From positions 1 through 56,276 of the IMG/VR virus record IMGVR_UViG_3300033148_005213: 56,276 nt of DNA. The stretch is one strand, 5' to 3'. Below, in pieces: positions 4,981 through 30,307 of the stretch. The translations under genes and the position numbers were made by a program. This stretch comes from a virus (Duplodnaviria; Caudoviricetes). Under the pieces are notes generated by a model. It was not told the DNA's origin. It ran no database searches and saw only the letters and a program-made list of their open reading frames with translations. The first letter of the stretch is position 1. Each line of letters starts with the position of its first letter.

Positions 4981-5029
4981 ATTAACTTAACAATAGTAAT
5001 ATAAGCATATAAAAGAAAAATAGCAACAA
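4981..5029. repeat. 49-bp perfect direct repeat containing an early promoter, copy 1
   Basis: Identical to 6225-6273. Confidence 0.95.
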
Positions 5030-6224: not shown

Positions 6225-6273
6225 ATTAACTTAACAATAGTAATATAAGCATATAAAAGAAAAATAGCAACAA
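6225..6273. repeat. 49-bp perfect direct repeat containing an early promoter, copy 2
   Basis: Identical to 4981-5029. Confidence 0.95.
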
Positions 6274-7737: not shown

Positions 7738-8568
7738 TTAAAATATTCTTTTCTTTTTACTAGCTTTCTTTTTTGTTCTGATCTTTTTCAATTCAATTTC
7801 AGCAATGTCTTTCCAAGACACATTGAAATATTTTGAATTTTCTTTTTGACATTTTCCCGAATCAATTCCTATAAATTTTCTTTTATTTTTAATGCAAGCT
7901 TTTCCTGTAGAACATGAACCCATTGTAAAATCTAAAACTATTTCACCTTCATTTGTATAAGTTTTTACTAAATATTCTAATAATTTTACGGGCTTTTGTG
8001 TTGGATGAATTGAGTTTCCTCTTTCCACTTTTACTTTTAAAATGCTACTTGGATTTTTAACCTTTATATCATACCTATTTATATCATAATCTTTTTTAGT
8101 TTTATTCCCTTGAATATCTGATCCACTAAACCTAATAGGATTTTTTTTATTTTCTAACCTCTTTTGACCCAATACATCTCGAGGTATCATTTGCCTATTA
8201 TATATTGATTGAGTAATATAAAACACACTTATTATTTCATGATATTTCAAGGGTTGTTTTTTAGCATTTCCAATATTTGCATGATTTGATTTTTCCCAAA
8301 TCCAATCATACTTATAATGTTTAATATTACTCATTCTCAATGCAGAACTAAATGGTTCACTTCCAAATAAAACTATAGCACCATTAGGTTTAATTAGTTT
8401 ATTTAATCGTAACCACATCTTGTCGAATGGGATTATTGAATCCCATGAGCAAGCTGTAGTTCCGTAAGGTGGATCTGTGATGATTGCATCTACTTTTATT
8501 CCTCTTGCGATTAATTGATCCATAATTTCTAGACAATCACCACAATATAATTCATATTGTTTATTCAA
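7738..8568 (-). CDS. Beta-class N6/N4 DNA methyltransferase
   Basis: GDCL, TDPPY, HPTQKP, LDFTMGSCSTG motifs in beta order. Confidence 0.92.
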   Translation of the reverse strand: MNKQYELYCGDCLEIMDQLIARGIKVDAIITDPPYGTTACSWDSIIPFDKMWLRLNKLIKPNGAIVLFGSEPFSSALRMSNIKHYKYDWIWEKSNHANIGNAKKQPLKYHEIISVFYITQSIYNRQMIPRDVLGQKRLENKKNPIRFSGSDIQGNKTKKDYDINRYDIKVKNPSSILKVKVERGNSIHPTQKPVKLLEYLVKTYTNEGEIVLDFTMGSCSTGKACIKNKRKFIGIDSGKCQKENSKYFNVSWKDIAEIELKKIRTKKKASKKKRIF

Positions 8569-8577
8569 ATTTCTAAC

Positions 8578-9597
8578 CTACTTTTTTAAAAACCTATTCT
8601 TAATGTAATTCATATTTTTAGTATTTTCTTTATATTTCTTACTTGTTTTAGATTCAACTATTCTATCAGGCAAAGAAAATTCTTCCATTCTTGAAATTAA
8701 ACTTGGAACATCACCTTCAGTTAATTGAGCTGCATTAATATTTCTGAGTGCCATTGACAGTTTAAATTGATTATATTTACCTTGTTCCTTTTTAACTTCC
8801 TGTATAATCAACTGTTGAACTTTCTTTGGAAGATTTTCTAATGACAAATCCATTAGTTTTACATTTATTTTATATCTTTCTTCTAAATTTTCATCAGGAT
8901 GCTGATCAAATATTTCTTGTAATGTGAATTTTTCCAATTTAGACTTCCATCTGAAATTTTTTTTAATTGATGGAATTGCATCAGCACTATCTCCTTTAAG
9001 ATAAAATAATAATTTATCATGGTCTGACATGTGTTCGGAACAATATTTTTTAGTATACCAATCATAATATAATATTTTATCAGTTGCAAGTGCCTTAACA
9101 TCTTTATCATGAGATATTAAAGTAACTTTTCGTTTTGATTTTAGGGCCAACACAGCACATATATCATCCGCTTCAACACCAGCAATTTCAATGACTTGAA
9201 AATCTGAAAAGTTTTTAAATAATTCTAAACATTCAGCATAACATTTTTCAAGAGTTTCCCAGTCAAATTTTGAATCTTTGACTCTACCTGCTTTATATCC
9301 CCCAAATCGTAAAGATCCATCATTATTTTTAGACATCTTTAAATGCATTTTATTGTAATAAATATCTCTCCAATATCCTCTCGCATACGAACCATCTAAT
9401 TTTTTAAATTTCTTTTTTCTATCAATTGCTAATATTAATCTATTTTTCTTAGTGCAATTAAATTCTCTTCTAATTTTTAATATTGACTGTATAAAATAAA
9501 ATTTAAATAGTTCTGGTCTTTTAACCAATTCTTGACTAATGTACTTTCCAAATATTGTCATCATTTTTACTACACTCGAATCTACAATAACTGCGAT
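8578..9597 (-). CDS. rnh: T4-type RNase H (5'-3' exonuclease); probable start at ATC 9597
   Basis: YWRD, YKAGR, EADD, SHDKD, GDSADAIP motifs; N-terminal IVDSS motif lies upstream of the first ATG (9564). Confidence 0.85.
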   Translation of the reverse strand: MAVIVDSSVVKMMTIFGKYISQELVKRPELFKFYFIQSILKIRREFNCTKKNRLILAIDRKKKFKKLDGSYARGYWRDIYYNKMHLKMSKNNDGSLRFGGYKAGRVKDSKFDWETLEKCYAECLELFKNFSDFQVIEIAGVEADDICAVLALKSKRKVTLISHDKDVKALATDKILYYDWYTKKYCSEHMSDHDKLLFYLKGDSADAIPSIKKNFRWKSKLEKFTLQEIFDQHPDENLEERYKINVKLMDLSLENLPKKVQQLIIQEVKKEQGKYNQFKLSMALRNINAAQLTEGDVPSLISRMEEFSLPDRIVESKTSKKYKENTKNMNYIKNRFLKK

Positions 9598-9609: not shown

Positions 9610-9891
9610 TTAAAATATTCTTTTCGTTTTTCTTCTTTTTATCTTTACTACTTCTTCTTTCTTTTTATTTTTCTTCTCTACAATAACTCTATTTGAGGTA
9701 ACAATAGGTTTTTCAATTTCTGGTAATTTTTTTCTTTTAAAGTCAGGACAATTGTCATAGTTTTCAGTGATAAATATTTTGAATTTTTTCTTTGATAAAT
9801 CTTTCTTTTTTAGATCGATGGTTTGACAACCATCAAACCATTGACACCTAATACACTGTTTACTTGATTTTCTTTTTTTATTCATCTTCAA
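9610..9891 (-). CDS. Basic Cys-containing hypothetical protein
   Basis: CIRC...C...CPDF; ends KRRKTKRIF. Confidence 0.6.
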   Translation of the reverse strand: MKMNKKRKSSKQCIRCQWFDGCQTIDLKKKDLSKKKFKIFITENYDNCPDFKRKKLPEIEKPIVTSNRVIVEKKNKKKEEVVKIKRRKTKRIF

Positions 9892-12007
9892 ACATATCCA
9901 CTACATTGTTCTCTAAAGCATACAATACCACTTGAATTGAGCCTTCTTCACTGTAACCACACTTTGTTTGCATATTTTTTAATAGGCGTACAACATCGTT
10001 TTTAATGTGTTTATTGTAAGATTCAAAATCCTTGGTTCCAAAGTCGTTAAGTGCTCTGTTAAAATCATAATCATCTTTATATTTTTCAAGAACATTGGAT
10101 TTAATTTCATTCTTGGATACTTTAAACATTGTTTTAAATAAATTTGTTTCAGTTATTTCTAAACCTTCTACATTCACTTGTTGCATAACTGCTTCTGATA
10201 AATATTTCTTCTGGATTGATTCTCTCATTATTATTCTTTCATCATCTTCAAAAACACCACCATTACTTGATTTATCTTCAAGACGTTTCAAGAAATCTTC
10301 ACTTACAACAAATTTGTTGCCAGTGTATGTACAGGTTACTTCATCGCCAATATCATAACTGAGTGCAAATAAATAATCCAAAATATCATCAGTAATTTGT
10401 TGTTCATTATAATCATAAATTGAATCTGATATTTCAGTAAAAATTTTATACTGATATGCTTTTTCAATCTCTGTTAAAATTTCAAGATTTGCACCTTCCT
10501 CAATTACAGGTGTCATAAATTCTATAACATGATTCAATGATATAATTTCATTATCTGTATTAGTTGTCAAGAATTGTTGCATTAAAGAAACCGATCGCCT
10601 ACCAGAAATTCCGCTAAAACCTGTAGAACCAACTTTTGGTGTAAAAATGGAATTCACTGTTTCAGTTGTTAATTTTTCTTTATCTGTTTGGGTAATGTAT
10701 TCTGGAATTTTACCAGTAAGCATTTCTATTTTTAATAAAGCTCCTCTTTTATCAATATATTTTTCATATTTAGAGAATCTAATCCAATTATTTGGCATAT
10801 CATCATCTAATCTAGTAAAAACTATTAATTTTGCAAAAAATTCAAAAACATGTGGTTGAAATATTTTTGCAATATCACCAAATTTATTTTTAAAAACTTT
10901 CAATTCAGTTTCGTAATTTAAAATATATGGAATGTTGATATTGTTTATTCTATCGTTCATTGATCTCATGTACTCACAAAAGCTAGTATCCTGTGGATTC
11001 CACAATCCTAAAAACACTGATTTTATATATTCTTCAGATAATCCAACTTTATGCAATCCGTCTGAAATAATTGTATGTAGTGATTGTATTCTCTTGACAT
11101 TTTCACCCTTCACATCCATCATTCCAAATATACCGTTGTTTGTTTTTGACAATATGCTTGAATATAATTTACTAGGAGTAATTTCCAAATCTTTTGAAAC
11201 ATCAGTATTTAATACATGTGATATAATTGGTTTGGTGGAATACTGGTCAGATGGGTTAAATATACTGATTCCATAACCAGCTTTTTTATCATACCTTGCT
11301 CTTCTAGCATGAATCATGTCAAATGCTTTTTCCTGTCCGTGTTTTTTCACAAGTTTTTCAAATACTTGTTTGCATATTTGGCAAGGTTCGTCTACGAAAA
11401 TCCAATTGAATTGTTTTTCTGTAAATATTCGTTGTTTCATTTCAGAGTCTTTAATCAAATCTTCTAGAAACTGTCGTCTATGCTTTACTGGAATTTGCAA
11501 TATTGGGTGATCATTATTTGGACATTCAAATTCAACTATTTTCTTTTCCGCATTTTCATATTTCCAAATGGTTACAAACAATTCACCCACTTCACTTTCA
11601 TTTAAATATTCTTCAAATTTCTCTAAAAAGTTTTTCAGGAATGTTGATTTTCCAGATCCTGGAGGTCCTTTGAACATTGTTATTGATTGATGATGTTCGC
11701 CAGTTCTAAATTTTTCAACCCAATTGACAAACTCATTTTGAAATACATGATCTGAAAAAAATGGAGAATTTTGATCACTTGCAAAAATATTACTAAGATC
11801 ATATTTAAAAATATCTTCAAATATTTTTTCTTCACATTTGAAGTCTTTTACATTTTCAAACACAAAATCATGTAGTGTCTGAAAAATATTTCGTAATGTA
11901 TAGTATGGATCTTTCTTAACAAGCTCAACAAATGAAAATAGTTGAACACTTTTCACTTTTTGTTCATCATTAGACAAACTGGTTAGTAAAATTTTTGTTG
12001 CGTTCAT
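9878..12007 (-). CDS. prkA: Second PrkA/YeaG-family AAA+ protein (degenerate Walker B)
   Basis: Walker A GPPGSGKST; CPNNDHPIL, IPYILNY, GFSGISGR and CGYSEE motifs typical of PrkA; last gene of the prkA-yeaH-spoVR cluster. Confidence 0.8.
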   Translation of the reverse strand: MNATKILLTSLSNDEQKVKSVQLFSFVELVKKDPYYTLRNIFQTLHDFVFENVKDFKCEEKIFEDIFKYDLSNIFASDQNSPFFSDHVFQNEFVNWVEKFRTGEHHQSITMFKGPPGSGKSTFLKNFLEKFEEYLNESEVGELFVTIWKYENAEKKIVEFECPNNDHPILQIPVKHRRQFLEDLIKDSEMKQRIFTEKQFNWIFVDEPCQICKQVFEKLVKKHGQEKAFDMIHARRARYDKKAGYGISIFNPSDQYSTKPIISHVLNTDVSKDLEITPSKLYSSILSKTNNGIFGMMDVKGENVKRIQSLHTIISDGLHKVGLSEEYIKSVFLGLWNPQDTSFCEYMRSMNDRINNINIPYILNYETELKVFKNKFGDIAKIFQPHVFEFFAKLIVFTRLDDDMPNNWIRFSKYEKYIDKRGALLKIEMLTGKIPEYITQTDKEKLTTETVNSIFTPKVGSTGFSGISGRRSVSLMQQFLTTNTDNEIISLNHVIEFMTPVIEEGANLEILTEIEKAYQYKIFTEISDSIYDYNEQQITDDILDYLFALSYDIGDEVTCTYTGNKFVVSEDFLKRLEDKSSNGGVFEDDERIIMRESIQKKYLSEAVMQQVNVEGLEITETNLFKTMFKVSKNEIKSNVLEKYKDDYDFNRALNDFGTKDFESYNKHIKNDVVRLLKNMQTKCGYSEEGSIQVVLYALENNVVDMFEDE

Positions 12008-12079
12008 TTGTTCCTCCGTGAAATTTATTTAATGTATAAAATTAAATATAAACAAATATTTTTGAAAAAGCAAGAACTT

Positions 12080-12421
12080 TTATTTATTTATCACATACAT
12101 CTTTTTACCATCATCCCAAATAAATTCTGGCTTTTTGGTTATTTGTTTTTCAGTGTCAACTTCGTCACCAACAAATCTAATTACAGTTTCTGGAGATAAA
12201 ACCAATCCACGTAGTCCTTTGTATTCACATGAAATCTGTCCTTCATCAATATCATACACTGTATAAACACCATCCAAAAAATCTTCTTCACTAATACCCA
12301 ACCAATCTGCTAAATATGACTGCATATAATATTTTTCACCACATGAACTGTCATCAGGATAAGAAACAATTTTTATTTTTTTATTTACATCCGTGTTTTC
12401 ATCAAGATCTTTTAATTTCAT
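12080..12421 (-). CDS. Small paralog-family protein (KKPEFIWD tail)
   Basis: MKLKDL...DVNKKIKI start; ETVIRFV...KKPEFIWDDGKK end. Confidence 0.75.
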   Translation of the reverse strand: MKLKDLDENTDVNKKIKIVSYPDDSSCGEKYYMQSYLADWLGISEEDFLDGVYTVYDIDEGQISCEYKGLRGLVLSPETVIRFVGDEVDTEKQITKKPEFIWDDGKKMYVINK

Positions 12422-14056
12422 TTATGACTTCCTTGTAATTTTCGTAACTTTGCCATTTTTAATAGTATATATAATTCTTTTCAATTCTTTTTTTAGTGGA
12501 GGATCATCAGCAGAAACTGTTAAATACGGATTCCTTTTTTCTACAAAGATTTCAGTTGTTTTTAATTCCACATTACCACCCCAAAGATATTCCAATCCTA
12601 CTAAAACATCCGAAATATAATCTTTGACCAATTGTTTACCTTCAAATTGGTGTTCTATACATAGACATTCATCATTTGTCTCTTGTTGGTTTACGGTGAC
12701 ATGTGGTGGATGATAAAGAGTATTTTTAAGCATATCTTTATAATCTTCAGCTTTTCTACTCTTAACATAGTATTCAATTGATTGACGTTCCTGATTAACT
12801 CTTTGACCGACTGTAAACAAATTGTTCTTGTTTACAAATTCCTGATCAACAAATGTATTGATTAAAGTAAAATCTGAAAAATTCTTTCTCACATCAAAAA
12901 TAGCTTTTTGTCCGTTCATCGATTTATCATCATAATTTTTTCTAATAGTTGCATCATGAATTTTTTGGAAATTAAAATTCATCTTTCCTTTGTTTCCAAG
13001 TTCTTCAATATGTTTATACAATCTCAAACCAATTGCATACGGATTTAAACCGACTCTTGACAAAGATACTACTTTAGAATTTAATAATGCAAAATCTGAT
13101 TCATGACTTCTAATTCTATCATCTGCCATAAATAATTTTTCATGCCAGTAACTTGCCCATCCTTCATTTGCAATTTTTGTTCTGATTTGAGGTGCAAAAT
13201 AAAGTGAAGTTCGCCTAACAATTGACAAAATGGATTTCATCCACTTATTTTGTTCTTTATTCAATTTAGGTGAATGTTCCTTTATAAATTCAAGAACATC
13301 AATATTATTTGAAGATGATGTTTTCTTCCATTCTTGATGTTTTGTTTCCAGTTCAGGATATTTACTTTTCACTTCACTGAAAAATATATTTTCACCTAAA
13401 TCAGCATTTTGATTTTTCAATTCATTATATCGTTCAATTTCTTTAATGATATAACTGGATGATTGCATTTGATCTGATAGAAAATGATTAAAATAATATT
13501 CAACCACTCCTTTTAATTCAGTTTTTTCATCAATATCCTGTTTAGACATTTCAGGAAAATAATGACAAATATTATCAATACTTCTTGAAAACTCAATAAC
13601 ATAATCAACCAATTTCATAGTATGCTTTTTTCTCAGTGATTCAATCAAATTTGAATCAGCTTTTGCAATACCTAAAAAATCATCATTCCAAGTATGTTTG
13701 AACATTGTGTTGTTTTGGAAAAAATCAACATGTGCAAGTACATGATAATATATCATGGTATTTAGCCAATCAGGATTATCTGAGTTGTAAAATGATATTG
13801 CAGCTCTCGTATTAATAACCGTTTCAAAAGCATTTGATGGTTGTATTTTGTAACGACCCTCAGTTTGTAGTAAATCAACGTCATGTACCCAAAAATCGTA
13901 CATTGTTGGAACCATTACTTTTGGAGACATTTCATTCATGTCCTTATTGGAAACAACATACTCCAATGTTTCATCATCAAAATTTAAACCAACATCTTTT
14001 GCTCTTAATTTACATTCTTCCATTATTTTCTTTTGTTTCTGGTCAATTAAATGCAT
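12422..14056 (-). CDS. spoVR: SpoVR / YcgB family protein
   Basis: FETVINT, HVLAHVDFFQNN, PQIRTKIANEGWASYWH, NPYAIG, YLWGG motifs. Confidence 0.93.
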   Translation of the reverse strand: MHLIDQKQKKIMEECKLRAKDVGLNFDDETLEYVVSNKDMNEMSPKVMVPTMYDFWVHDVDLLQTEGRYKIQPSNAFETVINTRAAISFYNSDNPDWLNTMIYYHVLAHVDFFQNNTMFKHTWNDDFLGIAKADSNLIESLRKKHTMKLVDYVIEFSRSIDNICHYFPEMSKQDIDEKTELKGVVEYYFNHFLSDQMQSSSYIIKEIERYNELKNQNADLGENIFFSEVKSKYPELETKHQEWKKTSSSNNIDVLEFIKEHSPKLNKEQNKWMKSILSIVRRTSLYFAPQIRTKIANEGWASYWHEKLFMADDRIRSHESDFALLNSKVVSLSRVGLNPYAIGLRLYKHIEELGNKGKMNFNFQKIHDATIRKNYDDKSMNGQKAIFDVRKNFSDFTLINTFVDQEFVNKNNLFTVGQRVNQERQSIEYYVKSRKAEDYKDMLKNTLYHPPHVTVNQQETNDECLCIEHQFEGKQLVKDYISDVLVGLEYLWGGNVELKTTEIFVEKRNPYLTVSADDPPLKKELKRIIYTIKNGKVTKITRKS

Positions 14057-14131
14057 TTGTGTTCCTCCATCAAATTTAATAGTATTAATTAAATATACAC
14101 AACATTTTTAAAAATAGCAAACTTTTTTATT

Positions 14132-14455
14132 TTAAATTACGTCTAACCAACTTCTTCTTTTCTTTTTAAATGTATTTTTTTCAATTGATAATGTTGCAAT
14201 TAAATCATCTGCCCAAATAAATACAGATTCACTTGAAAATATAAATCGATTCTCATCATCTACAATCAACACATGTTCACCATCATCATACACTGAGTCT
14301 ATGGTAAATAAAACATTTACAGTATTTTTTTCTTCAATTTGCAGACTATCACACATTGATTTAATTGTATCTTGTCTGGGATGATTAATTGAAATAATAT
14401 TTGTCAAATATATGTGTTTTCCTTCGTCATCTGTTATCAAGTCTTTTAATTTCAT
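14132..14455 (-). CDS. Small paralog-family protein (WLDVI tail; start re-called)
   Basis: MKLKDLITDDEGK...KKKRRSWLDVI; GGAG SD before ATG 14455. Confidence 0.75.
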   Translation of the reverse strand: MKLKDLITDDEGKHIYLTNIISINHPRQDTIKSMCDSLQIEEKNTVNVLFTIDSVYDDGEHVLIVDDENRFIFSSESVFIWADDLIATLSIEKNTFKKKRRSWLDVI

Positions 14456-14481
14456 TGTATTTCTCCATCTCACTTAAATTA

Positions 14482-14550
14482 GCCCTTTAAATTTCGCAAA
14501 ACTATTTCTAGTTGATACATTTACTGTTGAAAATAGTTTTGCGGTTTAAA
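14482..14550 (-). repeat. Conserved 3' hairpin element, copy 1
   Basis: 69 bp identical to 29841-29909; 13-bp stem CGCAAAACTATTT/AAATAGTTTTGCG. Confidence 0.9.
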
Positions 14551-14556
14551 TGTTGT

Positions 14557-14886
14557 TTAAATTATGTTTAACCAACCACGTTTCTTTTTAGGTTTTTGGA
14601 CAACAGGCAACATTTCTTCACTATCTTGTAAACTATCTTCAACAAATTCTATTACTGTTTCAAAACTTATATGAAATATATATCCAACACCAGTCATCAT
14701 TTCAGAAACACGAATACGATTTTCTCCAATAATTTTTTTATCGAATCTAAATACATCATCCTTGCACAAGTTGCGGTTTAAATACGATTTAATATATTGT
14801 AATGAATTACAATCTATAGCATGAACAAAATCTATTATATTTATTTCCTTACCAACATCTTCATCTTTTAAGTCCTTAACTTTCAT
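14557..14886 (-). CDS. Small paralog-family protein (WLNII tail)
   Basis: MKVKDLKDEDVGKEI...ETVIEFV...KPKKKRGWLNII. Confidence 0.8.
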   Translation of the reverse strand: MKVKDLKDEDVGKEINIIDFVHAIDCNSLQYIKSYLNRNLCKDDVFRFDKKIIGENRIRVSEMMTGVGYIFHISFETVIEFVEDSLQDSEEMLPVVQKPKKKRGWLNII

Positions 14887-14897
14887 AATGTACTTCC

Positions 14898-16151
14898 CTA
14901 TGATAATAATTTCTTAATAGTATTAATAATTTCTTGTTCGCTAATTGTTTCAGCTTGTCCCGAAGTCATTCTAAATATTTCTTTATAATCTTCAAGCATT
15001 CCAGAATTTTTAATATACTGTTCAACTGTAGTATCTCCGGAACCTCCCCAATTATTTTTAAAAATTGAAATACCTACTCTTGAAGCATATTTAAACAATT
15101 TTTTCAATTCTGATATGGTTTCTTCACCGCTATCCCAATCATCTCCATCCGAACAATAGAAACAATATATGTTATTATCTTTAGCTAAATTTTCTTCTTC
15201 AATTATATCATTTACAAGTTTAAAAGCCGGACTTACTTTCGTACCACCAGCAACCTGCGATTTATAATATGTATAAAAGTCTTTCACTTCTTTTGCATTT
15301 GTATCATGTAGAATGAATCTAGTTTGTACTCTATTTTGATATTGATGACATAACCAAGAATATAAGAATAGATGTTCTGTACATGAAACTTCAGCAGGTT
15401 TTCCATCCATTGATCCTGAATAATCCCTTACGAAAAATACAACAGCCTGAGATTCAAATACTTTTTCTCTTGACATTACTCTAAATACTTTATCATTTGG
15501 GTTTACTAAAAGTTTAGAAGTATCAACATTATTTGCATCCAATGTTCCCAGCAAAATATTTGTGGTTGCAATTTTCTTCAGTGTTGCTTTCTTATCTAAC
15601 AATTGCCCCGATCCAGTATTTCTATCTGTAAGATCATACTTAAATTTAGTAATAGATCTTTTCTTGCCCTTGTCTTTTAGATTAGGCAAGTCAAATTCTT
15701 CTGTTAAAATTCTACCAAGTTCAGCAGAATTAGAATCAATTTCATGATTTGCTCCATCACCTTCACCAGCTCCGTTTCCTTCACCCTCGCCTTGTTCAGG
15801 ATTTAATGGTCTTTCGCCAAGTATTTCACCCTCACCTTCTTCACCAGTGCCAGCTTCAGTTGGTCCTTCACCTTCGTCTTCATCTTCTTCAGATACAGAA
15901 TTATCATGATAGAATTTTGGTTCTGATGTAGTTGGCACTATTACAGCATTTGGTCCAACTCCAGATTTATTTGTAATTTTACCCATTCTTATTCTTCTAG
16001 GGAAACCATCTGCTTCCCTTTCATTATCTCTCTCCACCAATTCTTTCAACGTTCTTTTCAATTGTGTAGTTGCTTCAGATTTTTGATCAAACATTTTCGC
16101 ATCATCAAAATCATATAGCCTTACTACTTTTTTAATTTCTTCCATGATCAT
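14898..16151 (-). CDS. yeaH: YeaH/YhbH (DUF444) vWA-domain protein
   Basis: Gly/Glu-rich linker, LPNLKDKG, MIDAS RDYSGSM, GGT, SDGDDW. Confidence 0.92.
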   Translation of the reverse strand: MIMEEIKKVVRLYDFDDAKMFDQKSEATTQLKRTLKELVERDNEREADGFPRRIRMGKITNKSGVGPNAVIVPTTSEPKFYHDNSVSEEDEDEGEGPTEAGTGEEGEGEILGERPLNPEQGEGEGNGAGEGDGANHEIDSNSAELGRILTEEFDLPNLKDKGKKRSITKFKYDLTDRNTGSGQLLDKKATLKKIATTNILLGTLDANNVDTSKLLVNPNDKVFRVMSREKVFESQAVVFFVRDYSGSMDGKPAEVSCTEHLFLYSWLCHQYQNRVQTRFILHDTNAKEVKDFYTYYKSQVAGGTKVSPAFKLVNDIIEEENLAKDNNIYCFYCSDGDDWDSGEETISELKKLFKYASRVGISIFKNNWGGSGDTTVEQYIKNSGMLEDYKEIFRMTSGQAETISEQEIINTIKKLLS

Positions 16152-16161
16152 CCACCTTTTT

Positions 16162-16512
16162 TTAAATTACGTCCAACCAACTAGTATGTTTCTTTTTAGT
16201 TAATTGTTTATTTGATTCATCATCAACAATATCAAATTCTGTTATAGTGTGGATTGATGAATTGAATTGTATTAGAAATCCGTTGACTTCATCTTCAATT
16301 AGACAAACATTCTCATTTATTTTATAATTATCATATTGCCTATATGATCTCAAATGAAATTTATTCCCTATCTTCAGTTGTTGCATTGGCCAATTTTTCA
16401 TATCTCGAATTGCTTGTGCATCATTGATTACATCAATATTAGTAATTCGCAATTTACTATGTTCTGGAATTATTTTTGATGCGTATATTTCTAAAATTTT
16501 GTTCAATTTCAT
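16162..16512 (-). CDS. Hypothetical protein with WLDVI tail (start re-called at MKLNK)
   Basis: Ends KKKHTSWLDVI; promoter 16531-16559 overlaps the longer track start. Confidence 0.7.
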   Translation of the reverse strand: MKLNKILEIYASKIIPEHSKLRITNIDVINDAQAIRDMKNWPMQQLKIGNKFHLRSYRQYDNYKINENVCLIEDEVNGFLIQFNSSIHTITEFDIVDDESNKQLTKKKHTSWLDVI

Positions 16513-16565
16513 AATCAACTCTTTATTTTTAATATACAAAAACTATTTAAGAAAAGCAAGATATA

Positions 16566-16721
16566 TTATTTTTGTTTTCTTCTTCCACAATTCTTACAAG
16601 TTTTAATTTCCATATCAAATCTGTGAAAAACTTTATCAACTTCAATTGTAATTTCATAATCATGAACACATTTAAATTGTTTCCATAATTTTAAAATCAA
16701 TAATACTAAATCGCCAAACAT
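16566..16721 (-). CDS. Small zinc-binding peptide (51 aa)
   Basis: Manual translation MFGDLVLLILKLWKQFKCVHDY...KTCKNCGRRKQK. Confidence 0.6.
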   Translation of the reverse strand: MFGDLVLLILKLWKQFKCVHDYEITIEVDKVFHRFDMEIKTCKNCGRRKQK

Positions 16722-16829
16722 ATTTTAAATTCATTATTTTATATTTAAAAAGGGATTGAACATCAAACTATAATAATTCAATATTTTAATCCCTTTTCTT
16801 TGGAGGAGGCCAAATGAAACTATTTAACT

Positions 16830-18866
16830 TTATTCAGGTTTACAGAATTCCTCGATGGTTTTACAAGAACACGTATGGCAAAAGCCTAATTTATTCATCA
16901 TAGTATCAACCATTCTATTGTAGAGTTGCTTATTTTCTTCATTAGTACGATTTGCAAGAGCACCAACCAAACTACCTGCTCCAGCGACATCTGACTTCAG
17001 GCGAACATCCGTAATTGCCTTAACAAGTTCATTGTTATCAAGAAAATCGTAACCTGGTTCTGTCACCATTTTCTGTGAATAAATTTTTGAAATTGTTGTC
17101 CTAAAACTTTCTTTTTGTTCGTTATTATTTAAACCCAATCTTTTTTCAACACTATTGATAAATGTTTCATTAATTTTCAAAGGAATTAAATCCCCTGATG
17201 ATGGATCTCTGTAGGTCCAAATTTTATCATCACCCAAATTCTTAGCAGAAATTCCAATAATCATATTCACATAGTTCATAACATCTTTTTTAATTGCAAG
17301 TGGTTCATCCATGTAGGCATTAAACACAGATTCCATGATATTTTTTCTATACAGTGTTTTTGCAATTGCAATGTCGTTTTGATATTTAATTCTATCATTT
17401 GGCTCAGATACATAATCTAAGATAATATTATCAAGAGCTTTGAAAATATCTCCAGCAAACATACATTTGCCTTCCTGAGTTGCTGAACTTTCTAATAATA
17501 ATTGCAATGCTCTTCCAAGGTTTCTATGTCCTAATCCTTTCTGTCCAAATCTTTTTGTAACATCCGGTTCAGTATTTAATTCAGTGATAATTTCAGTTAA
17601 AGTTTTTACTGATTTTTCACCAGCTACTTCACCAGCTGCCAATTGCATCATTTCAATTGGTTGTAATTTTTGCACTGATGGCATTCTTGATAATGTTACT
17701 GCAACTGATAAAGCATGGTTTAAATTAGGATCAACATGAAGTTTTTCTCCTGTCAATGTTGTTTTTTTCCTTGCAGAACCAAGTGAATATTCAGTTAGTT
17801 CTTTTTGTAGTTTGTAATTGGTATTGTGGCTCATATAAGTAAGTCTACATCTATCAACAACTGGAGCTTGTTCCTTTTCTTCCAAGAAATTTTGAAATTC
17901 TGCATTGTTACTTGTTGCAATAATTAGAGTGTCGATTGGCCATTTGAAACCTTCAATATCAATAGTTCTGTTTTGAATAACACCTAAATAAATTTGTACA
18001 AGATCTTTTTTGTTTTTAAAGATTTCATCAGCAAAGTGAATTCCGCCACCTGCTACTCTTGCTAATGCACCTCTTTGTAGATCAAATTTATACGGGTTTT
18101 TTGTATCTGTAATGTTAAGAAGTCTAGTAATAGACTCTTCACCAAGTAAATCAACAGCGGATGATGTAATTTTATCTTTTGCGGCATATTTACCTGTTAA
18201 AGTTCCTCTTGATTCTGAAATAGGTACTGGAACAACATCAATAAAATCATTCATAATTTTTTCAACATCATCATCACAATGTTCTTTAATTTGTTCTAAG
18301 ATGTAATCAGAACATGCACCCAAAACTCTTTTATTGTCTTCCCAAAATTCAATTTGTTCATCAGTTGCACCAAGCTCTTTTAAATCAATTCCTAATGCGA
18401 ATGCAAGTAACATTGGATCTTCAAATGTCTGTGATTCAATTTCTCTTATTTTGCCGTATGTTTCAAATTTATCTAGGTTTTTAAATCTAAATGTGTATCT
18501 CTTATTTTCGGGTAGTGCAGTAAAATTTCTGTATGCAGTGTTAATATAGTCAATAACCATCGTCTTGCCATTTCCGGGTTCGCCTATCAAAACAAATGCC
18601 ATTTCACTGGATGATCCACCTTCAGAAGCATCTTTAACATACGAAACAAAACTATTGAGCTCATCATACATCGCAATTGGGTGTTTCTTACCTTGTCTAA
18701 AAATATTGAAGTCGTAAGTTGAAACTCCATTTACTTTCACTTTTTTGATTGCATCATCTTCACTGTGAAGAATGAGTCTGCAAAGTGATTGAAAAACATT
18801 CTCAAATCTTCTTTCACCATTAATTACTTTTTGTACGTGTTCTAACAAACTTTCTCTTTTCTTCAT
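16830..18866 (-). CDS. prkA: PrkA/YeaG-family AAA+ ATPase (annotated family: serine protein kinase)
   Basis: Walker A GEPGNGKT, Walker B IHFADEIFK, IIATSN, VVDR; AGGTGAGG SD before ATG 18866. Confidence 0.93.
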   Translation of the reverse strand: MKKRESLLEHVQKVINGERRFENVFQSLCRLILHSEDDAIKKVKVNGVSTYDFNIFRQGKKHPIAMYDELNSFVSYVKDASEGGSSSEMAFVLIGEPGNGKTMVIDYINTAYRNFTALPENKRYTFRFKNLDKFETYGKIREIESQTFEDPMLLAFALGIDLKELGATDEQIEFWEDNKRVLGACSDYILEQIKEHCDDDVEKIMNDFIDVVPVPISESRGTLTGKYAAKDKITSSAVDLLGEESITRLLNITDTKNPYKFDLQRGALARVAGGGIHFADEIFKNKKDLVQIYLGVIQNRTIDIEGFKWPIDTLIIATSNNAEFQNFLEEKEQAPVVDRCRLTYMSHNTNYKLQKELTEYSLGSARKKTTLTGEKLHVDPNLNHALSVAVTLSRMPSVQKLQPIEMMQLAAGEVAGEKSVKTLTEIITELNTEPDVTKRFGQKGLGHRNLGRALQLLLESSATQEGKCMFAGDIFKALDNIILDYVSEPNDRIKYQNDIAIAKTLYRKNIMESVFNAYMDEPLAIKKDVMNYVNMIIGISAKNLGDDKIWTYRDPSSGDLIPLKINETFINSVEKRLGLNNNEQKESFRTTISKIYSQKMVTEPGYDFLDNNELVKAITDVRLKSDVAGAGSLVGALANRTNEENKQLYNRMVDTMMNKLGFCHTCSCKTIEEFCKPE

Positions 18867-18909
18867 CTTTGACCTCACCTTAGATTTGAATTATTTAGTT
18901 GTAAAACTT

Positions 18910-19473
18910 TTATTTTAATATTGCAAAATTGTGTAATTCAGTTGTTAATGTTTTAATGGTATGACTCAATGATGATCCCCATTCTGTCCACTCAACACCA
19001 TTAAAGTATTGAAACTTTTCACCTGCTTCATATGCATCAATCATTCGTCCATGTGTCAAACGATCTTCACTTAGAGGAGTAAACAAATGAAGTTCTTTAT
19101 TTTCAACAATTGATTTCTTTATTATGTCTCTACTAAATGGAAATGTTTTCATTTCGTCTACATAGTAATCTTCATCAAATGGAACTACTACATGCATTTC
19201 AGGAAAATGTTTTAGATGATCTGAACAAGACATAAATTTTTTTACTGGTTTTGAAATATAAATGTGTATAGTATCGTCAATTGTTTCCACTTGATCACGA
19301 CCATCAATTGTTTCACCTGATTTACTTTCTTCAGGTCTCACAGGGGGTTCGGAACCAATTTGAGCTTTTACAGATCTCATATATTCTTCAGTTCCCATTT
19401 CACAATGCTTTCGATCTGCTTTCAATTGTTTTAAAGTCTTTTTAATTGCTTCTAACATTTTATTCTCCTTCAC
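18910..19473 (-). CDS. Hypothetical protein
   Basis: ORF between promoter 19500-19528 and prkA. Confidence 0.7.
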   Translation of the reverse strand: MKENKMLEAIKKTLKQLKADRKHCEMGTEEYMRSVKAQIGSEPPVRPEESKSGETIDGRDQVETIDDTIHIYISKPVKKFMSCSDHLKHFPEMHVVVPFDEDYYVDEMKTFPFSRDIIKKSIVENKELHLFTPLSEDRLTHGRMIDAYEAGEKFQYFNGVEWTEWGSSLSHTIKTLTTELHNFAILK

Positions 19474-19517
19474 ATTATTTTAATTGCTTACATACTTTCA
19501 ATATAAGTACAAATATT

Positions 19518-19784
19518 CTAAATAGCAAGCTTTATTTTCTTATATTGTATGAAAAATAATCTATGAGATTTATCAACGTTTGAGATATCAGCCCAATTTA
19601 AAAACTCATCTTCATCTTTAAACACTCCAACACCAGTAATTCCTAGAGATGCATTTCCGCTTATATGAGGAAGACAATAATCGACAAACAAATTTCCATT
19701 GCCACCATGATTGTAACCATCTACTAAAAATTCATTATCAACTTGTGATTCTGTAATAGTTTCCATCTTCGTGCCTCCCAGCAT
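19518..19784 (-). CDS. Hypothetical protein
   Basis: ORF with own promoter 19808-19836; GGGAGG SD suggests start at METITE. Confidence 0.65.
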   Translation of the reverse strand: MLGGTKMETITESQVDNEFLVDGYNHGGNGNLFVDYCLPHISGNASLGITGVGVFKDEDEFLNWADISNVDKSHRLFFIQYKKIKLAI

Positions 19785-21127: not shown

Positions 21128-22132
21128 CTATTTCTCCAAATTAACTTTCTTTATTCTTCTTAATTTCATGATGTTTTTTAATTTCATTTGAGCAACTATT
21201 CCACTATATGTATTATTTAGTAAAATACGCTTTATATCATCCTTTGTATGGCCATCTATAATATATTCGTTATTATCCTTCCATGTAAATGATTTTGGCC
21301 AAATGACCACCTTAAAGTCTTTCTCAGCCATTTCTAAACTTTTTCGAATACCGGTTTCATCATTATCAAAACAAAAAACAGGTTTTTTCAAAATATCCAA
21401 CAATAAATCTGGAAGTGAAGCAGACAGCATTGAAATTGAATTACTGATAAAGAATGAATCAATGTGACTCTCTAAAATATAAACAATTTTATCTTTATCA
21501 ATATTATACAAATTGCCAACTTTCAAATTTTTCTTAGATGCTAACGAAATGTGAAATTTCTTTTCAGTTATTGATCTACCTAAAAACCCATACATTGCAT
21601 CATCAGAATTTCTATACAACGGCATTATTAACATTTGCCCATATGCTTTTTCTTTTTTACTAGCTTTACACCAAAAGAATTTTTCATATATTTCTTTTGG
21701 AATTTTTCTATTTTTACAATATTTTACCGCATCTTGATTTTCTTTAATGTTTACAAATATTTTTTTAGATAGTGACTTTACGAATTTTGTTTGATCTCCA
21801 TCGTATGTGCTATTTGAAGTTGTTGATTTTCTTCTGATAGATTTTCTTGATATTACATCATCCAATTTTTCTCTTTTTTGTTCTTCATTGAATTTATTGA
21901 ATAATGTTGTATCCACAATTTTCAAATATTTCCAAAATGAAGTATGTAATCCGCAATTCCAACAACTGACAATCATTCCACCATCTGGTTGAGGACTAAA
22001 CCATAATCTAGTTTTTGATTTTGATTTTTCTGAATCGCCACAAACATTGCATCTTGCATTCCATTTACCATATTCTTTTTGCTTCAAATTGATCAAGCCT
22101 AAAGAAAATATATAATCAGTATAATTAATCAT
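21128..22132 (-). CDS. gp61: T4-type DNA primase
   Basis: Zn finger RCNVCGDS..SKSK.R...CWNCG; TOPRIM LESHIDSFF, FDND, KDNNE. Confidence 0.92.
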   Translation of the reverse strand: MINYTDYIFSLGLINLKQKEYGKWNARCNVCGDSEKSKSKTRLWFSPQPDGGMIVSCWNCGLHTSFWKYLKIVDTTLFNKFNEEQKREKLDDVISRKSIRRKSTTSNSTYDGDQTKFVKSLSKKIFVNIKENQDAVKYCKNRKIPKEIYEKFFWCKASKKEKAYGQMLIMPLYRNSDDAMYGFLGRSITEKKFHISLASKKNLKVGNLYNIDKDKIVYILESHIDSFFISNSISMLSASLPDLLLDILKKPVFCFDNDETGIRKSLEMAEKDFKVVIWPKSFTWKDNNEYIIDGHTKDDIKRILLNNTYSGIVAQMKLKNIMKLRRIKKVNLEK

Positions 22133-22135
22133 TTA

Positions 22136-22506
22136 TCACATACATTTTTTATCATTATCCCAAATAAATTCAGGCTTCTTTTTATTTTCTATATCATCAA
22201 CAAATTCAAATTCTGCTTCTCCATGAAAACTAAGTGCAATGTCTTTATTTCCATTTTCATCTACTGAATGTGCATCAATCCCCTCCATTACGCCATCTGC
22301 AATAATCCTCATACTAACATAAGCTACTATAAATGTCATTTGATATAACTCAAATATATCATTTGATATAACTCAAATATATCATTTAATGAAAGTCTTT
22401 CCAATATAAAATCTATACCAAATGATGTACATATTACTGGATCTAAATAATTAGTAATTTTAATTTCTTTGCCAACATCATCACCTTTTAATTCTGAAAT
22501 TTTCAT
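22136..22506 (-). pseudogene. Paralog-family gene interrupted by a 23-bp tandem duplication
   Basis: MKISELKGDDVGKEIKI start at 22506 with AGGAG SD; removing one repeat copy gives a 348-nt open frame ending KKKPEFIWDNDKK. Confidence 0.85.
22336..22387. repeat. 23-bp tandem duplication TCATTTGATATAACTCAAATATA x2 plus 6 bp
   Basis: Copies at 22336-22358 and 22359-22381. Confidence 0.95.
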
Positions 22507-22525
22507 TTAATCTCCTAAAAAATAA

Positions 22526-22659
22526 AAAGTTATTGAATTTGGCACATCGGATAGATAGCGATATACAATATTAACTTACCAAAGAAACTACTGTAAAAGG
22601 GCATTCCAGCAATCCCTATCCGACACATACCAACACTGGCCCTAAAATTCAATAACTTT
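22526..22659 (-). ncRNA. Candidate rod-shaped structured RNA
   Basis: 15-bp perfect closing stem (22526-22540/22645-22659) plus inner TCGGATAG/CTATCCGA stem; G-U pairs favour the minus strand. Confidence 0.55.
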
Positions 22660-22673
22660 ATAAATTTATAAAT

Positions 22674-29840: not shown

Positions 29841-29909
29841 GCCCTTTAAATTTCGCAAAACTATTTCTAGTTGATACATTTACTGTTGAAAATAGTTTTG
29901 CGGTTTAAA
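29841..29909 (-). repeat. Conserved 3' hairpin element, copy 2
   Basis: Identical to 14482-14550. Confidence 0.9.
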
Positions 29910-30239: not shown

Positions 30240-30307
30240 AATCAAACATCCTCACAATTTAATTAACTTATTAGAAATATACTAAAACTTTTCAAAAATA
30301 GCAAGAC

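What the first reader, a model, noticed from the sequence alone, without database searches (positions are those of the whole stretch)
9878..18866. Phage-encoded complete PrkA-YeaH-SpoVR-PrkA2 module rewired under phage early promoters
Seen: four long intact ORFs in the order prkA (AAA+), yeaH (vWA with MIDAS), spoVR, second prkA, lying between T4-type primase and RNase H; early promoters precede the units (19500, 16531, 14092, 12045) and small phage ORFs sit between every pair while gene order is kept. Established: YeaG/PrkA-YeaH-YcgB/SpoVR is a conserved cellular stress, starvation and sporulation-linked module, and AAA+/vWA pairs remodel target proteins. I do not know it as a described T4-like phage system. 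Inference: the phage has domesticated a host dormancy or protein-remodelling machine to reprogram host physiology or disable defence, perhaps using the interleaved small proteins as adaptors.
Basis: partly seen in the sequence, partly recalled or inferred. Interest (0 to 1): 0.92.

Follow-up and report, generated by a model that had tools for sequence, protein, structure and literature searches.

The report
Phage copy of two-PrkA starvation operon
A fragment of a large T4-like phage carries an intact four-gene bacterial starvation module (two PrkA ATPases, YeaH, SpoVR) that the phage has cut into separately promoted units; such modules are already on record in many phage genomes but have not been studied there.

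Summary
On the minus strand lie PrkA1 (16830-18866/18878), YeaH/DUF444 (14898-16151), SpoVR (12422-14056) and a second PrkA (9878-12007). All four are intact and pass Pfam cut-offs. They sit between a T4-type primase and an RNase H-like gene in a contig with gp23, sheath and baseplate genes.

The order PrkA1-YeaH-SpoVR-PrkA2 is the native cellular operon (57 of 80 closest genome loci). All four phage genes branch beside the same Bacteroidota-labelled clade, so the operon was captured whole.

Phage-borne PrkA/YeaH/SpoVR sets are not rare. There are 113 IMG/VR stretches. Of 49 records checked, 14 carry gp23. Thermus phage phiYS40 and Ralstonia phage RsoM2USA also have them. This scan has noted the trio in many other phage genomes.

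The interleaved small ORFs are one orphan paralog family that also occurs outside the module. The most likely function is host protein turnover during infection, by analogy with YeaG/SpdA. This is inferred, not shown. Verdict: new member of a known kind, moderate interest.

The parts
16830..18878 (-). PrkA1, AAA+/PrkA-type protein (682 aa from the GTG at 18878; 678 aa from the ATG at 18866)
   Evidence: PF06798 at 107.8 bits and PF08298 at 39.6 bits. 72% identical to Bacteroidales orthologues. 242 of 259 near-invariant cellular columns kept. Walker A GEPGNGKT and Walker B-like GGIHFADE present.
14898..16151 (-). YeaH/YhbH-type DUF444 protein with a C-terminal vWA/MIDAS domain (417 aa)
   Evidence: PF04285 at 122.1 bits. 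NF003712 at 540.5 bits, cut-off 421. 98 of 107 conserved columns kept. DYSGSM, HDT and DGDD present.
12422..14056 (-). SpoVR/YcgB-type protein (544 aa)
   Evidence: PF04293 at 209 bits. 56% identical to the best cellular orthologues. 145 of 164 conserved columns kept. Predicted to bind YeaH.
9878..12007 (-). PrkA2, the divergent second PrkA paralog (709 aa). It has Walker A, but the Walker B position reads MDV, as it reads MDI in cellular PrkA2.
   Evidence: PF06798 at 79.1 bits. 37% identical to the best cellular PrkA2. 94 of 120 conserved columns kept. End branch 2.13 against a median of 0.28. Matches PDB 9xip 'Serine protein kinase' at 1.7e-18.
19500..19528 (-). promoter-like motif heading the unit s187 > PrkA1
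   Evidence: motif family: 14 observed, 0.58 expected; listed as TTGCTA-17-TATATT
16531..16559 (-). promoter-like motif heading the unit s125 > YeaH > s109 > s113a
14092..14120 (-). promoter-like motif directly upstream of SpoVR (followed by GGAGG and ATG)
12045..12073 (-). promoter-like motif directly upstream of PrkA2 (followed by GGAGG and ATG)
18910..19473 (-). 187-aa orphan ORF, first gene of the PrkA1 unit
   Evidence: no Pfam, PHROG, NCBIfam or PADLOC hit
16162..16539 (-). small paralog s125, between PrkA1 and YeaH
   Evidence: family HMM 8.5e-47; alignment A2
14557..14886 (-). small paralog s109, downstream of YeaH
   Evidence: AlphaFold2 model with mean pLDDT 69.1
14132..14473 (-). 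small paralog s113a, upstream of the SpoVR promoter
12080..12421 (-). small paralog s113b, downstream of SpoVR
14495..14543 (-). 13-bp perfect-stem hairpin between s109 and s113a; one of four copies of this element in the window
   Evidence: (I4)
16748..16797 (-). terminator-like hairpin followed by a T run, 33 nt after the PrkA1 stop
   Evidence: I6
9610..9891 (-). 93-aa basic orphan ORF overlapping the PrkA2 stop, before the RNase H-like gene
21128..22132 (-). T4-type DNA primase (upstream core-gene flank)
   Evidence: phrog_47 at 2.8e-45; 49-52% identical to the primase of relative G050
8578..9564 (-). RNase H / 5'-3' exonuclease-like gene (downstream core-gene flank)
   Evidence: PF02739 at 38.8 bits; phrog_107; 48% identical to its G050 counterpart

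Best explanation
The window is about a quarter of the genome of a large, deep-branching T4-superfamily myophage. Its host is unknown. The variable interval between primase and RNase H carries a complete four-gene cellular operon: PrkA1 (AAA+ ATPase), YeaH (DUF444 with vWA/MIDAS), SpoVR and PrkA2. The operon was captured whole from a bacterium related to today's Bacteroidota-labelled lineages. The phage has kept all four genes under purifying selection but has taken the operon apart. Four copies of its own sigma-70-like promoter motif now head four units. A hairpin terminator closes the PrkA1 unit. Members of a phage-specific orphan small-protein family sit at each junction. This layout was most likely made by recombination at repeated promoter elements, as in T4-type hyperplastic regions. 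For function (inferred): the four proteins work together as in cells. SpoVR is held by the N-terminal segment of YeaH, which leaves the YeaH vWA domain free for a PrkA ATPase. The phage expresses them from its own promoters, free of the host's starvation control, to drive ATP-dependent turnover or remodelling of host cytoplasmic proteins. That would release amino acids and energy for virion synthesis in slow-growing or starved hosts.
For: Phage identity: gp23 at 149.6 bits, two sheath paralogs, baseplate wedge, primase. The record is an IMG/VR virus fragment, about 25% complete.

Whole-operon capture: PrkA1>YeaH>SpoVR>PrkA2 is the order in 57 of 80 closest genome loci, and most of the rest are cut by contig ends. 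In the concatenated tree (50 of those 80 loci plus the window) the phage is sister to a clade of 5 Bacteroidota-labelled rows and 1 Pseudomonadota-labelled row (SH-aLRT 100). The same 7-row set holds in the PrkA1 (100), YeaH (97) and SpoVR (99) trees, and a 9-row set holds for PrkA2 (96). Forcing the phage with the Ignavibacteriota-type clade costs 134.7 lnL, p-AU 3e-5.

Selection: 242/259, 98/107, 145/164 and 94/120 near-invariant cellular columns are kept. The ATPase and MIDAS motifs are kept.

Not a chimera: GC3 is 0.18-0.21, against 0.11-0.24 in backbone genes. The promoter motif and the small-ORF family occur both inside and outside the module.

Variable interval: relative G050 (MCP 69%, primase about 50%, RNase H 48% identical) keeps MCP>primase>10 kb>RNase H, but the interval holds an NAD-ligase, a guanylate-kinase-like gene and unknowns, with no module. 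PeSL-type shuffling is described in PMC4122927 (abstract read).

Complex: SpoVR+YeaH scored 0.72, best of 3 controls 0.00. That mark was reached by 58 of 80 solved complexes and 2 of 110 mismatched pairs; those counts hold only roughly because my own alignments were used. The runs agree in at least 68% of contacts, and the partner's pLDDT is at least 63. Neither protein has a PDB relative by sequence.

Function by analogy: YeaG/SpdA is needed for starvation-induced, largely non-specific degradation of cytoplasmic proteins in E. coli (PMC13684143, passages read). B. subtilis PrkA hydrolyses casein in an ATP-dependent way (PMC9512850, abstract read). yeaG, yeaH and ycgB show conserved cofitness in six bacteria (10.1101/072470, passages read).
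Against: There are no expression data and no host. No sequencing run could be listed, so contig continuity was not checked at read level.

PrkA1 and SpoVR are not equivalogs of the E. coli proteins. NF011999 scores 26.4 bits against a cut-off of 576, and NF008737 scores 103.3 against 679. The function is therefore carried over across deep divergence.

In the passages read, YeaG's role in proteolysis is genetic and could be indirect. The reported flux is a few percent of protein per hour, which matters only if the latent period is long.

PrkA2 evolves about 7 times faster than the cellular median and keeps only 78% of conserved columns.

The donor label rests on MAG titles and 'quick' trees with a long phage branch. 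The AU group was named after the tree was seen.

GGAG/GAGG lies upstream of 19 of 63 ORFs. By my recollection that is untypical for Bacteroidota hosts, so donor and host may differ.

Only one of the four module promoters, the one at 16559-16531, has any hairpin upstream, and that hairpin lies about 190 nt away. The PeSL analogy is therefore incomplete.
Confidence: 0.5

Rival explanations
1. Signalling or dormancy control. The module acts as a kinase/AAA+ signalling pathway that switches host physiology (nitrogen/amino-acid metabolism, a stationary-phase-like state) towards conditions that favour phage replication. It would not act as a bulk protein-degradation machine.
For: The PrkA C-domain is kinase-like by its Pfam family name (PF06798). 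Price et al. propose a conserved signalling pathway linked to nitrogen and amino-acid use, with species-specific phenotypes. OMZ virome authors read viral spoVR as manipulation of host state (PMC8940887, passages read).
Against: For B. subtilis PrkA, kinase activity was not found, whereas ATP-dependent proteolysis was (section headings and abstract of PMC9512850). The E. coli phenotype is global proteolysis. No substrate or regulator partner is encoded nearby.
Confidence: 0.22
2. Retargeted remodelling machine. The orphan small paralogs, with their conserved ends and variable cores, are adaptors or regulators that direct the PrkA/YeaH/SpoVR machine to particular host proteins such as defence factors.
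For: Four of the five intact paralogs lie at the module's junctions and are co-transcribed with it by position. They share a conserved C-terminal tail, KKKRxWLDVI. The family is unknown outside this contig.
Against: A fifth intact copy (29916-30245) and decayed copies (22136-23057) lie outside the module. The same tail is on an unrelated ORF at 29336-29650. Other phage-borne modules are compact: only 5 of 127 junctions in 80 IMG/VR loci have gaps over 250 nt. There is no PADLOC hit and no informative fold. Local duplication through repeated promoters explains the clustering equally well.
Confidence: 0.1
3. Artefact or dead cargo. The block is a mis-assembled piece of a low-GC bacterial genome, or a passenger with no role in infection.
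For: Some candidate donors have the same low GC (L083 at 28%, L090 at 31%), so composition alone cannot exclude a join. No run was available for read mapping.
Against: Phage core genes lie on both sides, in the same order as in relative G050. Phage-specific promoter motifs and paralogs lie inside the block and elsewhere in the contig. In cells the operon is compact, but here it is split. The nearest cellular copies are only 37-72% identical, so this is no recent bacterial fragment. All four reading frames are intact and 78-93% of constrained sites are kept on a long branch.
Confidence: 0.03

Closest known systems
Cellular four-gene operon PrkA1 - DUF444/YeaH - SpoVR - PrkA2 (Bacteroidota, Desulfobacterota, Fibrobacterota, Ignavibacteriota and others); related two-PrkA cluster of haloarchaea (Anderson et al. 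2011, PMC3102087)
   Same: Same four families in the same order and orientation (57 of 80 loci). Each phage gene groups with its positional counterpart. Motifs and 78-93% of constrained columns are kept.
   Different: It sits in a phage. It is split into four units by the phage's own promoter motifs, hairpins and five inserted small ORFs. Its branches are 2.4 to 7.6 times the cellular median.
E. coli yeaG(spdA)-yeaH plus ycgB; B. subtilis prkA-yhbH plus spoVR (three-gene starvation/sporulation module)
   Same: Same three Pfam families and the same domain architecture. The presumed joint action is the basis for the proposed protein-turnover function.
   Different: Deeply diverged subtype. The E. 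coli-type equivalog models for PrkA and SpoVR are far below cut-off. There is an extra PrkA2. Control is by phage promoters and not by a host stress sigma factor.
Phage-borne PrkA/YeaH/SpoVR sets: Thermus phage phiYS40 group, Ralstonia jumbo phage RsoM2USA, huge phages LR745206/LR756502/LR756504/LR756511, and many IMG/VR T4-type contigs
   Same: A complete cellular module is carried by large myophages. PhiYS40 also has a foreign gene (616 aa) between SpoVR and PrkA. 14 of 49 IMG/VR records checked carry gp23 together with the module.
   Different: Those sets have one PrkA. Their SpoVR is only about 22-30% identical to this one. They are mostly compact. Only L003, a phage fragment with a terminase gene, shares the SpoVR-PrkA2 type, and it groups with Desulfobacterota-type sequences, not with this phage.
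PeSL-type promoter/terminator cassettes of T4-like hyperplastic regions (Arbiol 2010, PMC2839356; Comeau 2014, PMC4122927)
   Same: Repeated early-type promoter elements punctuate a variable interval between core genes, and the cargo differs between relatives.
   Different: A stem-loop joined directly to the promoter is seen at 19900-19808. At the module promoters only one hairpin lies upstream, and it is about 190 nt from the promoter at 16559. No pair of close relatives is available to show an actual exchange.

Membership tests
PrkA/YeaG - YeaH - SpoVR module (general) | A PrkA protein with an N-terminal AAA_PrkA domain and a C-terminal PrkA domain | tested here: met
   PrkA1: PF08298 at 39.6 bits and PF06798 at 107.8 bits, cut-offs 25. 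Walker A and Walker B-like motifs present.
PrkA/YeaG - YeaH - SpoVR module (general) | A DUF444 protein with a vWA/MIDAS domain | tested here: met
   PF04285 at 122.1 bits; DYSGSM, HDT and DGDD present.
PrkA/YeaG - YeaH - SpoVR module (general) | A SpoVR-family protein encoded with the other two, co-oriented | tested here: met
   PF04293 at 209 bits. All genes are on the minus strand in the order PrkA1, YeaH, SpoVR. Adjacency is interrupted by small ORFs.
PrkA/YeaG - YeaH - SpoVR module (general) | The proteins act together (cofitness or physical complex) | tested here: inconclusive
   Only a model: SpoVR+YeaH scored 0.72 against a best control of 0.00. PrkA partners were not tested. Cofitness is not testable here.
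Four-gene two-PrkA operon (PrkA1-DUF444-SpoVR-PrkA2) | A second, divergent PrkA paralog directly after SpoVR, orthologous to cellular PrkA2 | tested here: met
   Order as in 57 of 80 loci. PrkA2 groups with cellular PrkA2 and keeps 94 of 120 conserved columns. The two phage PrkAs are barely alike (E 0.008).
E. coli YeaG/SpdA and YcgB equivalogs | Score above the NCBIfam equivalog cut-off | tested here: not met
   NF011999 at 26.4 bits against 576; NF008737 at 103.3 bits against 679. YeaH does pass a PRK05325 sub-model (540.5 against 421).
T4-superfamily myophage | gp23-type major capsid protein, contractile sheath, baseplate wedge, T4-type primase | tested here: met
   PF07068 at 149.6 bits; phrog_23, phrog_219 and phrog_47. 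The MCP is only about 25% identical to isolates.
PeSL-type mobile regulatory cassette | A composite terminator stem-loop plus early promoter, repeated, at the borders of indels between related phages | tested here: inconclusive
   Repeated promoter: met. Joined stem-loop: seen only at 19900-19808. Indel borders cannot be tested, because the nearest relative G050 is too distant.
Anti-phage defence or anti-defence system | Match to a known defence-system model | tested here: not met
   PADLOC: no hit at E <= 0.001 for 9 proteins. There was one P-loop hit at E 0.0065.

The most novel reading that the evidence does not exclude
The phage has turned a cellular starvation machine into an infection-time 'host proteome recycler' under its own early-type promoters. 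The orphan small paralogs wedged between the genes, with their conserved basic-aromatic C-terminal tails and variable cores, would be phage-made adaptors or timers that decide which host proteins the PrkA1/PrkA2-YeaH-SpoVR machine attacks. That would be a programmable, virus-encoded protein-destruction system.
Probability: 0.1. Interest if true: 0.85.

Novelty: new member of a known kind. Interest (0 to 1): 0.48.

Why it matters
The PrkA/YeaH/SpoVR module is one of the most widespread bacterial gene sets whose biochemistry is still unsolved. A 2026 paper ties its ATPase to bulk protein breakdown in starved E. coli. Large phages of several lineages have taken up complete copies repeatedly and kept them under selection. 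That suggests the module does something directly useful during infection, plausibly feeding virion synthesis from host protein, much as T4 feeds DNA synthesis from host DNA.

This contig adds three things. It is a four-gene, two-ATPase version in a T4-type phage. It is a natural experiment in which the operon has been cut into separately promoted genes. And a model places the conserved N-terminal segment of YeaH on SpoVR, which gives a concrete interface to test. The work can be done in cultured phages that carry the module (phiYS40, RsoM2USA).

Tried and rejected
Megablast of the 9-kb block against GenBank phages: no match.

Single-protein scans of IMG/VR with SpoVR and with the primase: no relatives. 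An alignment query was needed.

The contexts of the closest metagenome proteins (P0002, P0003 and others) could therefore not be read. I used genome contigs and viral-contig loci instead.

The look-up of sequencing runs: none was listed. Read laying was therefore not run, and there is no read-level check of continuity and no RNA evidence.

Generic sigma-70 and terminator scan: not enriched. My first motif search used the wrong spacing and was uninformative.

tRNA scan: none found.

Small-paralog family: no homolog outside this contig (5 hits, all from the 56,276-bp contig). The AlphaFold2 model has pLDDT 69.1. Foldseek against the PDB gave 0 matches at E <= 0.001; weak SH3-like beta-barrel look-alikes were rejected as uninformative.

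PADLOC: nothing.

PhiYS40 gene 058 (616 aa, between SpoVR and PrkA) was tested as a possible second PrkA. It has no Pfam hit and no hit to my PrkA1 or PrkA2 profiles, so this was rejected.

Five genome loci with SpoVR but no neighbouring module genes (L085, L086, L087, L089, L091) were tested as possible relatives of this phage. They share no other gene with the window, so this was rejected.

L003 was tested as a sister of this phage's module. It groups with Desulfobacterota-type sequences, so this was rejected.

dN/dS was not attempted. The nearest copies are 37-72% identical in protein, so synonymous sites are saturated. Conservation of constrained columns was used instead.

Host assignment was left open. 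The Bacteroidota-type donor signal conflicts with frequent Shine-Dalgarno sites and a sigma-70-like promoter.

Within that library no paper treats the module as a phage system. It appears only in a gene table (PMC8504454) and as spoVR listed as a virome 'sporulation' gene (PMC8940887). No paper was found for PDB entry 9xip. Paper supplements were closed and may hold gene lists that bear on prior mentions.

Not used: the search of protein representatives, the protein-atlas search, the RNA family tools, and the second structure job.

Full report
WHAT IS THERE. The window is one whole IMG/VR virus record of 56,276 bp. It is linear and estimated about 25% complete. GC is 27%.

Nearly all genes are on the minus strand. 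They include a gp23-type major capsid protein (PF07068, 149.6 bits), two sheath paralogs, a baseplate wedge protein, a T4-type primase (21128-22132) and an RNase H/5'-3' exonuclease-like gene (8578-9564). The capsid protein is only about 25% identical to that of any isolate in GenBank. This is therefore a deep branch of the T4 superfamily.

THE FOUR GENES. Between primase and RNase H lie four long intact ORFs:
- PrkA1, 16830-18878.
- YeaH/DUF444, 14898-16151.
- SpoVR, 12422-14056.
- PrkA2, 9878-12007.

All four pass Pfam gathering scores and hit PHROG families 22605, 19072 and 35217. Walker A is present in both PrkAs. PrkA1 has a Walker B-like GGIHFADE. YeaH has MIDAS-type DYSGSM, HDT and DGDD. 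The two PrkAs are barely similar to each other (E 0.008).

THE SECOND PrkA IS NATIVE. The closest SpoVR proteins in a 5.8-billion-protein collection are 53-59% identical, and those that carry a name are named after Bacteroidota, Kapabacteria, Ignavibacteria and similar groups. The closest PrkA2 proteins are 34-38% identical and come from the same kinds of organisms, often on contigs of the same length as the SpoVR hits.

I fetched the 80 best genome loci out of 593 confirmed and located all four families in them. The tally was:
- 57 show PrkA1>YeaH>SpoVR>PrkA2 on one strand.
- 8 show YeaH>SpoVR>PrkA2, 5 show SpoVR>PrkA2 and 2 show PrkA1>YeaH>SpoVR. These are mostly cut by contig ends.
- 2 have the same order with fragmented genes.
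- 1 has PrkA2 inverted and 1 has PrkA2 upstream on the other strand.
- 4 have SpoVR alone.

Two adjacent PrkA genes with DUF444 and SpoVR were reported for all haloarchaea in 2011 (PMC3102087, passage read).

WHERE IT CAME FROM. I used the 50 loci with four full-length genes and left out the other 30 of the 80. Against these, the phage proteins are at best 72% (PrkA1), 56% (YeaH), 56% (SpoVR) and 37% (PrkA2) identical.

In a concatenated tree the phage is sister to a clade of five Bacteroidota-labelled rows and one Pseudomonadota-labelled MAG (SH-aLRT 100). The same seven-row set appears in the PrkA1, YeaH and SpoVR trees (100, 97, 99). A nine-row set appears in the PrkA2 tree (96).

A tree that forces the phage with the Ignavibacteriota-type clade is 134.7 log-likelihood units worse (p-AU 3e-5). 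That group was chosen after seeing the tree.

These are 'quick' trees and the phage branch is long. End branches are 0.65, 0.98, 0.71 and 2.13, against medians of 0.19, 0.30, 0.29 and 0.28. Labels are MAG titles. The safe statement is one capture of the whole operon from a lineage near these Bacteroidota-labelled genomes.

SELECTION AND COMPOSITION. The phage keeps most of the columns that are at least 96% conserved in the 50 cellular rows: 242 of 259 (PrkA1), 98 of 107 (YeaH), 145 of 164 (SpoVR) and 94 of 120 (PrkA2). On such long branches this shows continued purifying selection. PrkA2 is the loosest. The missing Walker B glutamate of PrkA2 is a trait of the cellular family too (MDI in cells, MDV here).

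GC3 of the four genes (0.18-0.21) lies within the range of phage backbone genes (0.11-0.24). Some candidate donors are equally AT-rich, so composition alone proves little.

HOW THE PHAGE REWIRED IT. A motif of the form CTTGCTATTT-N13-TGTATATT occurs 14 times, against 0.58 expected (maximum 3 in 200 simulations). By position and the printed context, most copies lie 25-45 nt upstream of a GGAGG-type ribosome site and a start codon. It reads as a sigma-70-like TTGCTA-17-TATATT.

Four copies end at 19500, 16531, 14092 and 12045. They define these units:
- P>s187>PrkA1, closed by a hairpin with a T run at 16797-16748.
- P>s125>YeaH>s109>hairpin (14495-14543)>s113a.
- P>SpoVR>s113b.
- P>PrkA2>s93>RNase H.

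'Early' timing is an inference from the sigma-70-like form. The generic promoter scan is not enriched in this AT-rich DNA (90 against 85.6).

THE SMALL ORFs. s125, s109, s113a and s113b belong to one family. It has an N-terminal MKxKDL..DVGK, a variable core and a C-terminal KKKRxWLDVI. There is a fifth intact copy at 29916-30245 and there are decayed pieces at 22136-22506 and 22872-23057.

The family has no relative outside this contig in the large protein collection. Its model is a small beta protein with pLDDT 69, and no PDB match reaches E 0.001. A similar tail sits on an unrelated ORF at 29336-29650.

The s109 hairpin is one of four copies of a conserved element and is near-identical to the one after the 29916 copy. 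This points to duplication of ORF-plus-hairpin cassettes.

A VARIABLE INTERVAL. The nearest relative I could find is IMG/VR record G050: MCP 69%, primase 49-52% and RNase H 48% identical. It has the same order MCP>primase>about 10 kb>RNase H. Its interval holds an NAD-dependent ligase, a guanylate-kinase-like gene and unknown ORFs, and no module gene. G050 is only 30% complete.

The interval therefore behaves like the hyperplastic regions of T4-like phages. In those regions, repeated promoter/terminator cassettes (PeSLs) mediate gene shuffling (PMC4122927, abstract read; PMC2839356, listing only).

HOW COMMON IN PHAGES. With an alignment query, 113 of 207 candidate stretches in IMG/VR encode SpoVR relatives. 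In the 80 kept, the layouts are:
- 43 PrkA>YeaH>SpoVR.
- 22 YeaH>SpoVR.
- 9 YeaH>SpoVR>PrkA.
- 5 SpoVR only.
- 1 SpoVR>PrkA (L003).

Only 5 of 127 junctions have gaps over 250 nt.

I checked 49 records (50 of the 80 loci passed, one not held). Of these, 14 carry gp23 above cut-off, including records estimated 92% and 100% complete. All 14 have exactly one PrkA.

In GenBank phages (50,697 records):
- SpoVR relatives of this copy are in 5 records.
- Classical PrkA is in 17 records: 11 Thermus phage records, 4 huge phages, RsoM2USA and Enterobacter phage LAU1.
- YeaH is in 19 records.

PhiYS40 encodes DUF444, SpoVR (so annotated), an unrelated 616-aa protein, and PrkA ('serine kinase') in a row. 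RsoM2USA encodes PrkA, DUF444 and SpoVR in a row (gene table of PMC8504454).

L003 is a second phage fragment of the two-PrkA type. It reads SpoVR, a 98-aa ORF, PrkA2, then a terminase gene. It is not sister to this phage.

spoVR was called the most abundant viral 'sporulation' gene in an oxygen-minimum-zone virome (PMC8940887).

Earlier notes of this scan list the trio in many other phage genomes, and the four-gene operon in many cells. My own counts agree.

HOW IT PROBABLY WORKS. What is shown elsewhere:
- yeaG, yeaH and ycgB have conserved cofitness in six bacteria (10.1101/072470).
- E. coli YeaG, renamed SpdA, is required for starvation-induced, largely non-specific degradation of cytoplasmic proteins that supplies amino acids and energy (PMC13684143).

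What is modelled here: phage SpoVR and YeaH are predicted to bind, with score 0.72 against a best of 3 controls of 0.00. That mark was reached by 58 of 80 solved complexes and 2 of 110 mismatched pairs; because my own alignments were used, those counts hold only roughly. The runs share at least 68% of contacts and the partner's pLDDT is at least 63. The interface uses YeaH residues 32-117 and SpoVR 56-72, 148-163, 332-337 and 411-486. This leaves the vWA/MIDAS domain of YeaH free. Neither protein has a solved relative by sequence, so a pass from memory is unlikely.

What is inferred: the vWA domain engages a PrkA ATPase, as in other AAA+/vWA pairs (recalled, not tested). PrkA2 is a non-hydrolysing partner. 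The phage expresses the set from its own promoters to break down or remodel host proteins during a long infection.

Weak points: the subtype is far from the E. coli proteins. There are no expression data. The host is unknown. The reported proteolysis flux is slow.

VERDICT. This is a phage-borne, selected, re-promoted copy of a cellular module, but the four-gene layout is native to cells. Such modules are frequent in large phages and already deposited, though unstudied. An adaptor role for the small ORFs is unsupported. I class it as a new member of a known kind. Its particular points are the two-PrkA version in a T4-type phage, the operon cut into four promoter-led units, and a testable YeaH-SpoVR interface.

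Noticed in passing
window 14482-14550, 29841-29909 (minus); 47898-47965, 49883-49952 (plus): Four-copy conserved hairpin element: TTAAAC, a 13-bp stem, a loop, then TTTAAAGGGC. The stem ends differ in a compensatory way between the two pairs (CGC/GCG against AAC/GTT). The two minus-strand copies each follow a member of the small paralog family.
   Followed up: partly
window 12080-16539, 29916-30245, 22136-22506, 22872-23057: Orphan family of about 110-aa proteins with conserved ends (MKxKDL..DVGK ... KKKRxWLDVI) and variable cores. There are five intact copies and decayed ones, including a copy split into two ORFs just before the primase. No relative was found outside this contig.
   Followed up: yes
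window 29336-29650 (minus): An ORF outside the family ends in the same kind of tail (KKKIRKGWMDVL). The tail may be a portable C-terminal docking motif.
   Followed up: no
window 4998-5029 and 6242-6273 (minus): Two identical copies of the promoter-like motif with identical flanks bracket a block of about 1.2 kb. This looks like a promoter-bounded cassette.
   Followed up: no
window 38307-41192 and 41256-43991 (minus): Two adjacent very long tail-sheath paralogs (961 and 911 aa), both hitting phrog_23.
   Followed up: no
window 30308-31999 (minus): A 563-aa ORF next to the capsid gene matches PHROG 3339, annotated 'homing endonuclease', at 1.4e-105, but has no Pfam hit.
   Followed up: no
window 3495-4511 and 7738-8568 (minus): Two DNA methyltransferase-like genes (Eco57I/N6_Mtase type and N6_N4_Mtase type) in the early region.
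   Followed up: no
L166 13198-20000 and L167 1-3205 (record G050): The related phage carries an NAD-dependent DNA ligase and a guanylate-kinase-like gene in the primase-RNase H interval, where this phage carries the PrkA module.
   Followed up: partly
L003 110-8326: A second phage fragment has SpoVR, an inserted 98-aa ORF, PrkA2, a small sigma-70 region-4 protein and a terminase large subunit. This is an independent phage capture of the two-PrkA type.
   Followed up: partly
L168 4065-5915 (Thermus phage phiYS40, YS40_058): A 616-aa protein with no Pfam family sits between SpoVR and PrkA in the phiYS40 module. It is not PrkA-like.
   Followed up: partly
PDB 9xip/9xiq/9xir: A solved 692-residue 'Serine protein kinase' (30 chains in 3 entries) matches PrkA2 residues 25-405 at 1.7e-18 but does not match PrkA1 at E 0.01. 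I found no paper for it in the library.
   Followed up: partly
L085, L086, L087, L089, L091: Genome loci with a SpoVR 52-55% identical to the phage's but no PrkA1 or YeaH within 10 kb. In four of them SpoVR stands alone, and L091 has a PrkA2 about 7 kb upstream on the other strand. They share no other gene with the window.
   Followed up: partly
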